Virus record (IMG/VR): IMGVR_UViG_3300046475_000120
Span: 1,183 to 65,182 of that record
Length of the DNA stretch: 64,000 nucleotides
Strand: one strand, 5' to 3'
Source of the DNA: a virus
Lineage: Duplodnaviria > Caudoviricetes
Under the pieces are notes generated by a model. The model searched no databases. It saw only the letters and a list, made by a program, of their open reading frames with translations, and was not told the DNA's origin. Below, in pieces: positions 38,403-38,603 of this stretch. The number at the start of each line of letters is the position of its first letter. Positions within the stretch are counted from its first letter, which is position 1. Made by a program: the position numbers and the translations under genes.

Positions 38403-38567
38403 GCGTAAGGACGGCGTGGAGAATCGGAGACACGCAACGACGCGATACCGGGCGTCAACGTAGAAAATTGTCACGGTAAAGGTAGGTAGGTGACCGCTCA
38501 GACCTGAAAGGCGCAGTACGGCCCAGACTGGGAACACATCGCTGGGGTAACGTCCGGCTCCTTACGC
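38403..38567 (+). ncRNA. Second structured RNA, multibranch
   Basis: Perfect 9-bp closing stem GCGTAAGGA/TCCTTACGC enclosing four hairpins. Confidence 0.65.
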
Positions 38568-38603
38568 TGTTTTACGCAGGGACCGGCGTAAGCGGTCCAC
38601 CCC

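What the first reader, a model, noticed from the sequence alone, without database searches (positions are those of the whole stretch)
38403..38598. Second multibranch RNA and a GNRA hairpin packed between the tRNA-mimic and tRNA-Asp
Seen: a perfect 9-bp closing stem GCGTAAGGA/TCCTTACGC encloses hairpins CGTG/CACG (loop with two GGA), GACGC/GCGTC, GTCAC/GTGAC (purine-rich loop GGTAAAGGTAGGTAG) and CCCAG/CTGGG. It is followed by GGACCG..C-GTAA-G..CGGTCC and then the tRNA. About 440 nt have no credible ORF. Inference: a polycistronic RNA operon processed by tRNA-maturation enzymes. The GGA loops could bind the phage CsrA-like protein as in RsmY/Z sponges, or the RNA could be self-cleaving, as reported for ribozymes adjacent to phage tRNAs.
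Basis: partly seen in the sequence, partly recalled or inferred. Interest (0 to 1): 0.7.

Follow-up and report, generated by a model that had tools for sequence, protein, structure and literature searches.

The report
Unconserved spacer before phage tRNA-Asp
The claimed "second multibranch RNA" is most likely an ordinary, lineage-specific transcribed spacer lying between a real, widespread tRNA-shaped phage RNA and a tRNA-Asp gene; I found no support for a CsrA sponge or a ribozyme.

Summary
The proposed multibranch fold is not favoured: it scores -51.6 kcal/mol against an MFE of -73.1, its closing stem has probability 0.02, and its inner hairpins have probability 0.06 or less. Only the GUAA hairpin at 38580-38598 is robust.

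Folding energy is ordinary. The z-score is -1.6 against shuffles, and the window ranks at the 28th percentile of all 196-nt windows of this phage. GGA is not enriched (5 seen, 4.8 expected). No Rfam family, ribozyme, tRNA remnant or tmRNA-like tag is present.

No homologue turned up in IMG/VR, JGI metagenomes, GTDB genomes or GenBank phages. This phage has no close relative in those collections. The one relative with the same layout (L027) has an unrelated 69-nt spacer at this position.

The real structured RNA is the neighbour at 38234-38402. It is a tRNA-shaped RNA with kissing loops and a covarying closing stem, found in more than 100 phage contigs and in the HK620 late leader, often within tRNA arrays. 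This scan had already met that RNA on other DNA (e1-244665 and related notes). It had not met the region reviewed here.

Best reading: a precursor spacer removed during tRNA processing. Interest is low.

The parts
38394..38603 (+). 210-nt non-coding spacer between the 3' strand of the tRNA-shaped RNA's closing stem and the first base of tRNA-Asp. The finding (38403-38598) lies inside it.
   Evidence: It has no coding periodicity and no protein-family hits. It matches no Rfam family. No homologue was found anywhere.
38402..38421 (+). 5' arm of the long-range helix.
38558..38577 (+). 3' arm of the long-range helix. It contains two TTACGC copies 10 nt apart (38562 and 38572).
38580..38598 (+). 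Stable hairpin with a 6-bp stem, a bulged G, a C-G pair and a GUAA tetraloop, 5 nt upstream of the tRNA. No U-run follows it, so it is not an intrinsic terminator.
   Evidence: Pair probabilities are 0.65-1.00. No terminator is called here. The 19-mer has only chance matches in GTDB genomes.
38234..38402 (+). Context: a tRNA-shaped phage RNA with a closing stem, a 4-bp hairpin, a variable domain, a 5-bp hairpin and complementary hairpin loops. This is the neighbouring finding, and it is real and conserved.
   Evidence: It scores 79.4 bits, E 5.6e-18, against model R1. The closing stem covaries. The model matched 94 places across the 98 loci searched.
38604..38680 (+). Context: tRNA-Asp (GTC).
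   Evidence: ARAGORN and Rfam tRNA, 72.6 bits.
38685..38746 (+). Context: conserved leader of the 126-aa gene. It holds a 37-nt block that is essentially invariant in related phages, and a 7-bp hairpin whose 3' arm overlaps the Shine-Dalgarno sequence.
39150..39180 (+). Context: the first intrinsic terminator-like site downstream, so the likely end of the transcription unit.

Best explanation
The stretch 38394-38603 is a lineage-specific, weakly constrained transcribed spacer within one precursor. The order along that precursor is: upstream mRNA, tRNA-shaped RNA, spacer, tRNA-Asp, leader plus 126-aa gene, terminator.

Inferred steps, none shown here:
- RNase P cuts at 38603/38604 to make the tRNA 5' end.
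- The tRNA-shaped RNA is released upstream by the same tRNA-maturation enzymes.
- The spacer is a by-product that is degraded.

Its GC-rich self-complementarity is what any 58% GC sequence of this length gives. The GCGTAAG/CTTACGC repeats look like local duplication. The stable GUAA hairpin just before the tRNA may incidentally keep spacer sequence from mispairing with the tRNA, or slow exonucleases. Nothing indicates a function of its own.

Shown: the stretch is non-coding, it has no family match, it is not conserved, its fold energy is ordinary, and its context lies within a tRNA-associated RNA cluster.
For: - Non-coding.
- Fold stability is ordinary: z = -1.60 and -1.29 against shuffles, and the 28th percentile of genome windows.
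- No homologue turned up. The sets searched were the TerS-related loci, loci carrying the 126-aa gene, the loci carrying the upstream motif, GenBank phages at E <= 10, and pattern scans of IMG/VR and GTDB genomes, which gave chance hits only.
- L027 shares the motif, a downstream tRNA and the conserved leader plus gene. Its spacer is an unrelated 69 nt and its tRNA is Gly rather than Asp.
- Across the family, the distance from the motif to the next tRNA ranges from about 5 to 277 nt with no shared sequence, so this position is freely variable.
- No terminator or sigma-70 promoter is called inside the gap, which is consistent with read-through transcription.
Against: - This phage has no close relative in any collection. 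The nearest relatives found for two flanking proteins are 52-56% identical. Conservation could therefore be tested only at long range; a young, lineage-specific RNA would look the same.
- The GCGTAA/TTACGC hexamer occurs 4 times in 210 nt (P = 0.036). It creates two mutually exclusive long-range helices only 2.4 kcal/mol apart, which could be read as a switch.
- A 10-nt repeat is shared with the 5' end of the neighbouring RNA, at 38238 and 38415.
- A 210-nt functionless insert is somewhat unusual in a compact 65-kb phage.
Confidence: 0.55

Rival explanations
1. An orphan, lineage-specific structured RNA domain with its own function. One example would be a conformational switch built on the four GCGTAA/TTACGC arms that governs 5' processing of tRNA-Asp. 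Another would be a stable processed RNA acting in trans.
For: - A long-range helix closes a domain of about 175 nt in both competing registers, which differ by 2.4 kcal/mol.
- The hexamer cluster has P = 0.036, and three of the five GCGTAAG heptamers in the window lie here.
- The GUAA hairpin is very stable.
- The stretch sits between two genuine structured RNAs.
Against: - The fold energy is unremarkable.
- There is no homologue and so no covariation.
- It is absent from L027.
- No Rfam family matches.
Confidence: 0.15
2. A decayed remnant of former cargo. It could be a degenerate second copy of the tRNA-shaped RNA, since tandem copies exist elsewhere, or one or more eroded tRNA genes from a former array.
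For: - Same-strand pairs of family copies a few hundred nt or less apart occur in L078, L108 and L119; the second L119 copy scores only 35 bits.
- The spacer begins with the same 10-mer as the 5' end of the real copy.
- It shares the outline of a closing stem followed by a 4-bp hairpin.
- The long spacer in L055 carries a T-arm-like remnant.
Against: - Model R1 with filters off finds nothing in 38403-38598 at E <= 10.
- There is no tRNA signal at E <= 10.
- The relaxed ARAGORN hit is noise, because about 2 hits occur per shuffled gap.
- The 10-mer repeat is about what chance allows (roughly 0.07 by my own estimate).
- An ad hoc architecture scan gave hits that 5% of shuffles also give.
Confidence: 0.15
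3. A DNA-level regulatory region. The TTACGC repeats (two direct copies 10 bp apart plus an inverted copy 14 bp further on, all within 45 bp of the tRNA) would be an operator for a phage or host DNA-binding protein that controls a promoter for tRNA-Asp and the 126-aa gene.
For: The spacing of the hexamers at 38562, 38572 and 38586, one helical turn between the direct copies, resembles an operator. The site lies at the early/late gene junction upstream of the terminase genes.
Against: - No sigma-70-like promoter is called anywhere in 37600-39700.
- The repeats are absent from the equivalent place in L027.
- The heptamer does not recur at other intergenic sites of the window.
Confidence: 0.08
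4. A CsrA/RsmA-titrating sponge for the phage's CsrA-like protein.
For: The phage encodes a CsrA-like 65-aa protein at 46648-46845 (Pfam CsrA, E 8.4e-6, 26.1 bits, just under the cut-off of 27). Two GGA triplets lie in one putative loop.
Against: - GGA occurs 5 times against 4.8 expected, and A.GGA twice against 1.2.
- The hairpin that would present the GGAs has probability 0.01.
- There is no match to any Rsm or Csr family and no terminator.
- BcepIL02 has the CsrA-like gene in the same head-module position but lacks this RNA.
Confidence: 0.02
5. A self-cleaving ribozyme that helps to mature the adjacent tRNA.
For: Self-cleaving theta ribozymes are known next to phage tRNAs (PMC10879173).
Against: - No ribozyme family matches at E <= 10 in a 210-nt search or a 1.1-kb search.
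- The theta ribozymes are proposed to process the tRNA 3' trailer in gut phages that appear to infect Bacteroidota and Bacillota. This stretch is 5' of the tRNA, where RNase P suffices.
- The stretch is not conserved.
Confidence: 0.02

Closest known systems
Intercistronic spacers and 5' leaders of bacterial and phage tRNA operons, removed by RNase P, RNase E and exonucleases (established knowledge, not tested here)
   Same: Non-coding and on the same strand as the tRNA. It lies directly 5' of a canonical tRNA and is variable in length and sequence between relatives.
   Different: At 210 nt it is long for such a spacer. The upstream neighbour is a tRNA-shaped RNA rather than a true tRNA.
The tRNA-shaped phage RNA family defined here by model R1 (window 38234-38402; HK620 16095-16190). 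It is not in Rfam 15, and I found no paper that names it.
   Same: Immediately adjacent and on the same strand. The spacer shares a superficially similar outline (a closing stem, then a 4-bp hairpin) and a 10-nt stretch of the 5' end.
   Different: There is no R1 match at E <= 10 with filters off. The two invariant hairpins and their complementary loops are missing.
Small stable RNAs C and D (species 1 and 2) within the phage T4 tRNA gene cluster (recalled from memory, not checked here)
   Same: Non-tRNA RNA sequence that is co-transcribed with phage tRNAs and processed with them.
   Different: The T4 RNAs are discrete, stable species that have been observed experimentally. Nothing shows that this spacer accumulates.
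RsmY, RsmZ and CsrB sponges for CsrA
   Same: GC-rich non-coding RNA that contains some GGA triplets, in a genome that encodes a CsrA-like protein.
   Different: GGA density is at chance level, the GGA loops are not predicted to form, no terminator follows, and no family matches.
Theta (minimal HDV-like) ribozymes next to phage tRNAs (PMC10879173)
   Same: A structured-RNA candidate adjacent to a phage tRNA.
   Different: Those ribozymes are proposed to process the tRNA 3' trailer and are found in gut phages that appear to infect Bacteroidota and Bacillota. This stretch lies 5' of the tRNA and matches no HDV-like or other ribozyme model.

Membership tests
CsrA-titrating sRNAs (RsmY/RsmZ/CsrB type) | Many GGA motifs, well above background | tested here: not met
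   GGA occurs 5 times in 196 nt against 4.8 +/- 1.6 in dinucleotide-preserving shuffles. A.GGA occurs twice against 1.2.
CsrA-titrating sRNAs (RsmY/RsmZ/CsrB type) | GGA motifs presented in the loops of stable hairpins | tested here: not met
   The CGTG/CACG hairpin that would present two GGAs has pair probability 0.01.
CsrA-titrating sRNAs (RsmY/RsmZ/CsrB type) | Match to a curated family model, and an intrinsic terminator at the 3' end | tested here: not met
   No Rsm or Csr family matches at E <= 10. No terminator is called before 39150.
CsrA-titrating sRNAs (RsmY/RsmZ/CsrB type) | Binding of CsrA protein | not testable with these tools
   This needs a gel-shift assay with the 46648-46845 protein.
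Self-cleaving ribozymes (hammerhead, HDV-like/theta, twister, twister-sister, pistol, hatchet and others) | Match to the conserved catalytic core of a known class | tested here: not met
   A cmscan of the 210 nt alone, and of 1.1 kb, against 4227 Rfam families at E <= 10 gave no ribozyme.
Self-cleaving ribozymes (hammerhead, HDV-like/theta, twister, twister-sister, pistol, hatchet and others) | Self-cleavage of the transcript | not testable with these tools
   This needs an in vitro transcription assay.
tRNA-shaped phage RNA family (model R1) | A closing stem enclosing the two invariant hairpins whose loops are complementary | tested here: not met
   With filters off, the only R1 hit in the window is 38234-38402 (79.4 bits). 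Nothing is found in 38403-38598 at E <= 10.
tRNA or decayed tRNA | Cloverleaf with a T-arm signature | tested here: not met
   ARAGORN finds one tRNA only. The Rfam tRNA model finds nothing further at E <= 10. The one hit from ARAGORN at a 60% threshold is noise, because 431 hits arise in 200 shuffles of the gap.
tmRNA-like tag-coding RNA, as seen upstream of the tRNA-shaped RNA in enterobacterial prophages | A short tag reading frame that ends in hydrophobic residues followed by stop codons, and a match to tmRNA models | tested here: not met
   L032 shows such a frame, ending in ...LMAA and two stops, together with weak tmRNA hits. None of the three frames of 38381-38610 has anything similar, and no tmRNA hit is found.
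Conserved structured RNA of any kind | Homologues with compensatory base changes | tested here: inconclusive
   No homologue was found in IMG/VR, JGI metagenomes, GTDB genomes or GenBank phages. The phage also lacks close relatives, so only long-range conservation is excluded.

The most novel reading that the evidence does not exclude
The 210-nt spacer is a young, lineage-specific regulatory RNA domain. Its four GCGTAA/TTACGC arms would allow two mutually exclusive long-range helices. Switching between them would decide whether the tRNA-Asp 5' leader is presented to RNase P, or whether the downstream conserved leader and gene are expressed. This would couple output of the tRNA-shaped RNA, the tRNA and the 126-aa gene.
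Probability: 0.08. Interest if true: 0.5.

Novelty: not a real feature. Interest (0 to 1): 0.15.

Why it matters
The finding matters little in itself. It shows that a hand-drawn multibranch fold in GC-rich non-coding DNA can look persuasive while being no better than chance.

The review did locate where the real signal in this gap lies. The adjacent 38234-38402 element belongs to a very widespread phage RNA family that has no match in Rfam 15. It has the shape of a tRNA and sits inside tRNA arrays and late leaders. The leader at 38685-38721 is almost invariant across distantly related phages. Those two elements deserve the attention, not the spacer.

Tried and rejected
- **Sequencing runs.** No sequencing run, DNA or RNA, was listed for 37700-39200. 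So no RNA holder is available, and this says nothing about expression.
- **Relatives found through TerS** (L002-L013, 33-50% aa identity) have no homologue of the gap and no tRNA-Asp.
- **Relatives found through the 126-aa protein** (L014-L016, 51-54% aa identity) have the conserved leader but no gap or tRNA.
- **The DUF551 neighbour gene** has one relative, at 56% identity. Two single-protein scans of viral contigs found nothing.
- **Pattern scans.**
  - The closing-stem pattern gave 7 chance hits in viral contigs.
  - A tRNA-Asp pattern gave none in viral contigs.
  - The leader pattern gave none in viral contigs.
  - The GUAA-hairpin 19-mer gave 3 chance hits in Streptomyces, Maricaulis and Verrucomicrobia genomes.
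- **Weak Rfam hits judged to be chance:** Glutamine-II at 9.2 bits and E = 6, GP20-b at 12.2 bits, and rydB at 17.7 bits, which is really the invariant hairpin of the neighbouring RNA.
- **Pairing with the leader.** Complementarity between the conserved leader loop and the gap is marginal (P about 0.04-0.05). It lies in the neighbour rather than in the finding, and it is not seen in L027.
- **A home-made architecture scan** for a diverged copy of the tRNA-shaped RNA was unreliable. It missed the true copy because of a mismatch in that copy's closing stem, and its hits in the spacer were matched by 5% of shuffles.
- **Literature searches** did not find a name for the neighbouring family.

Full report
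**Setting**

The window is almost the whole of a 65,182-bp IMG/VR virus record with terminal repeats, rated 100% complete. Its major capsid gene is 74% identical at the nucleotide level to that of Burkholderia phage BcepIL02, genus Lessievirus.

The finding lies in a gene-free gap, 38221-38603. The gap is bounded upstream by a 63-aa ORF (38029-38220) and downstream by tRNA-Asp(GTC) at 38604-38680. After the tRNA come a 63-nt leader, a 126-aa ORF (38744-39124), a terminator-like site near 39150-39180, and then the small and large terminase genes. All genes in this stretch are on the + strand.

**Check of the observation**

- The closing inverted repeat is in fact 10 bp, 38402-38411 with 38559-38568.
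- The hairpin at 38580-38598 has a GUAA loop.

The gap is non-coding. Flanking genes show the expected rise in third-position GC (0.71-0.88), whereas the gap and every ORF that overlaps it are flat. Those ORFs match no PHROG or Pfam family.

The fold as drawn is not what the sequence prefers.
- Its closing stem has ensemble probability 0.02.
- Its four internal hairpins have probabilities of 0.00-0.06.
- The preferred outer helix is an imperfect 18-bp pairing of 38403-38421 with 38558-38577, which uses a second TTACGC copy.
- Only the GUAA hairpin is robust, with probability about 1.

Stability is unremarkable. The z-score is -1.60 for the 196 nt and -1.29 for the whole gap. After regressing folding energy on composition for all 196-nt windows of the genome on both strands, this window falls at the 28th percentile.

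The one mildly non-random feature is four copies of GCGTAA/TTACGC within 210 nt (P = 0.036). Three of the five GCGTAAG heptamers in the window are here.

**Search for relatives**

Nothing resembling 38393-38603 was found in any of the following:
- loci related through the small terminase;
- loci carrying homologues of the 126-aa gene;
- the loci that carry the upstream motif;
- GenBank phages, even at E <= 10;
- pattern scans of IMG/VR and of 185,579 GTDB genomes, which gave chance hits only.

The phage has no close relative at all. The best relatives of two flanking proteins, among 5.8 billion protein clusters, are 52-56% identical. Absence of conservation is therefore firm only at long range.

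The most informative comparison is metagenome contig L027. It was found through an almost invariant leader element. On one strand it carries, in order, a copy of the upstream tRNA-shaped RNA, a tRNA, an extra ORF, the conserved leader and the homologue of the 126-aa gene. There the tRNA is Gly(TCC), and the stretch between the RNA and the tRNA is an unrelated 69 nt. The position occupied by the finding is therefore freely variable even where the surrounding architecture is kept.

**What the gap really contains**

The only piece of the gap shared with L027 is a 21-nt hairpin at 38368-38388. In 103 of the 120 related loci examined, a second near-invariant hairpin lies 44-188 nt upstream of it.

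The two hairpins are enclosed by a closing stem whose sequence differs from phage to phage while pairing is kept. Ten of its 11 pairs show changes on both sides, and none of 500 shuffles reached the observed covariation score.

The two hairpin loops are complementary over 6 nt. At one of these loop-loop pairs, three loci (L027, L079 and L086) each carry a different compensatory change.

With a 7-bp closing stem, a 4-bp first hairpin and a 5-bp last hairpin, the RNA has tRNA-like proportions.
- A covariance model (R1) scores the window copy at 38234-38402 at 79.4 bits. It finds 94 matches in the loci searched.
- The RNA lies in the late leader of phage HK620, between qut and the late terminator, and in many Klebsiella, Escherichia, Salmonella and Aeromonas phages.
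- About 20 of 120 loci have a same-strand tRNA within 320 nt, in several cases about 5-10 nt downstream.
- It has no match in Rfam 15.

This element is the subject of the neighbouring note on this window (e1-5873983). The scan had already met it on other DNA (e1-244665, and the tmRNA-like notes e1-147927 and e1-199676). The region reviewed here is not part of it: R1 with filters off finds nothing in 38403-38598 at E <= 10.

CsrA sponge.
- The phage does encode a CsrA-like 65-aa protein. The same gene sits in the head module of BcepIL02, which has no such RNA.
- GGA is at chance level in the finding (5 against 4.8).
- The loop said to display two GGAs belongs to a hairpin of probability 0.01.
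- No Rsm or Csr model matches, and no terminator follows.

Ribozyme.
- No ribozyme class matches at E <= 10, even when the 210 nt are searched alone.
- The published tRNA-associated theta ribozymes are proposed to process tRNA 3' trailers in gut phages that appear to infect Bacteroidota and Bacillota (PMC10879173). This stretch is 5' of the tRNA, where RNase P acts.

Decayed tRNA. Nothing appears at normal or moderately relaxed thresholds. The single hit at a very lax threshold is noise.

tmRNA-like tag piece, a lead taken from the earlier notes. L032 shows a clear tag frame about 200 nt upstream of its tRNA-shaped RNA. The spacer has none.

**Most likely mechanism**

No promoter or terminator is called inside the gap. 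The upstream genes, the tRNA-shaped RNA, the spacer, tRNA-Asp and the 126-aa gene are therefore probably transcribed together, up to the terminator near 39150-39180.

The following steps are inferred, not shown:
- RNase P defines the tRNA 5' end at 38603/38604.
- The tRNA-shaped RNA is released by the same maturation enzymes.
- The 210-nt spacer is a by-product.

Its stems are what GC-rich sequence of this length yields. The hexamer repeats suggest local duplication. I put this reading at about 0.55.

The alternatives, with my estimates:
- an orphan functional RNA or switch, 0.15;
- a decayed second copy or an eroded tRNA, 0.15;
- a DNA operator or promoter built on the TTACGC repeats, 0.08;
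- a CsrA sponge, 0.02;
- a ribozyme, 0.02.

**Verdict**

As a discrete structured RNA the finding is best regarded as not real, and its interest is low. The adjacent tRNA-shaped RNA and the invariant leader downstream are the features of this locus worth following.

Noticed in passing
window 38234-38402 (+): This is a member of a very widespread tRNA-shaped phage RNA family. It scores 79.4 bits against model R1. The family has a covarying 7-11-bp closing stem and two near-invariant hairpins, and their loops form a 6-bp kissing interaction with three independent compensatory changes (L027, L079, L086). It was found in at least 119 IMG/VR loci and in the HK620 late leader (16095-16190), often inside tRNA arrays. 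It has no match in Rfam 15. It is the subject of the neighbouring note e1-5873983.
   Followed up: yes
window 38685-38746 (+); L014 about 3940-4003, L015 about 3945-4003, L016 3345-3408, L027 1409-1335 (-): A 37-nt block directly upstream of the 126-aa gene is essentially invariant in five phage contigs, although their encoded proteins are only about 51-54% identical. It forms the loop and 5' arm of a 7-bp hairpin whose 3' arm overlaps the Shine-Dalgarno sequence. The 196-nt window starting at 38681 is among the 15 most stable windows in the genome. The only Rfam hint is a weak Mu-gpT-DE hit (13.7 bits). It is a candidate translational operator or late-promoter element.
   Followed up: partly
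L032 958-1064 and L074 1010-1113: In enterobacterial prophage contigs, a tmRNA-like tag template lies about 200 nt upstream of the tRNA-shaped RNA. Its frame ends in ...LMAA followed by two stops. Rfam gives weak hits to tmRNA_permuted (26.3 bits) and beta_tmRNA. This agrees with earlier scan notes on a phage tmRNA-like RNA. Whether the two RNAs work together as a two-piece tmRNA analogue remains open.
   Followed up: partly
L016 3940-4095; L078 1905-2066 and 2519-2669; L108 1-58 and 251-356; L119 4351-4488 and 3961-4130: Diverged and paired copies of the tRNA-shaped RNA exist. In L078, L108 and L119 two same-strand copies lie a few hundred nt or less apart. In L016 a 23-bit copy, with a 59-nt insertion in the last hairpin loop, lies downstream of the homologue of the 126-aa gene.
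   Followed up: no
window 46648-46845 (+): A 65-aa CsrA-like ORF lies between the putative scaffold gene and the major capsid gene (Pfam CsrA 26.1 bits, just under the cut-off of 27). It occupies the same position as gp49, 'CsrA-like regulator', of BcepIL02.
   Followed up: partly
window 30561-30800 (-), 16961 (-), 23481-23720 (+), 48001 (+): These 196-nt windows have the strongest composition-corrected folding energy in the genome (z from -3.4 to -4.1). The one near 23.5 kb coincides with another first-reader note about a structured leader.
   Followed up: no
L055 3040-3310: The 277-nt stretch between the tRNA-shaped RNA and tRNA-Met in this locus contains a T-arm-like sequence. This suggests an eroded or non-canonical tRNA that ARAGORN does not call.
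   Followed up: no
L025 286-308, L026 2555-2576, L028 365-386: Exact 22-23-nt matches to the conserved leader block occur on short peat or soil metagenome contigs that show no other nucleotide similarity to the window. I did not examine their context.
   Followed up: no
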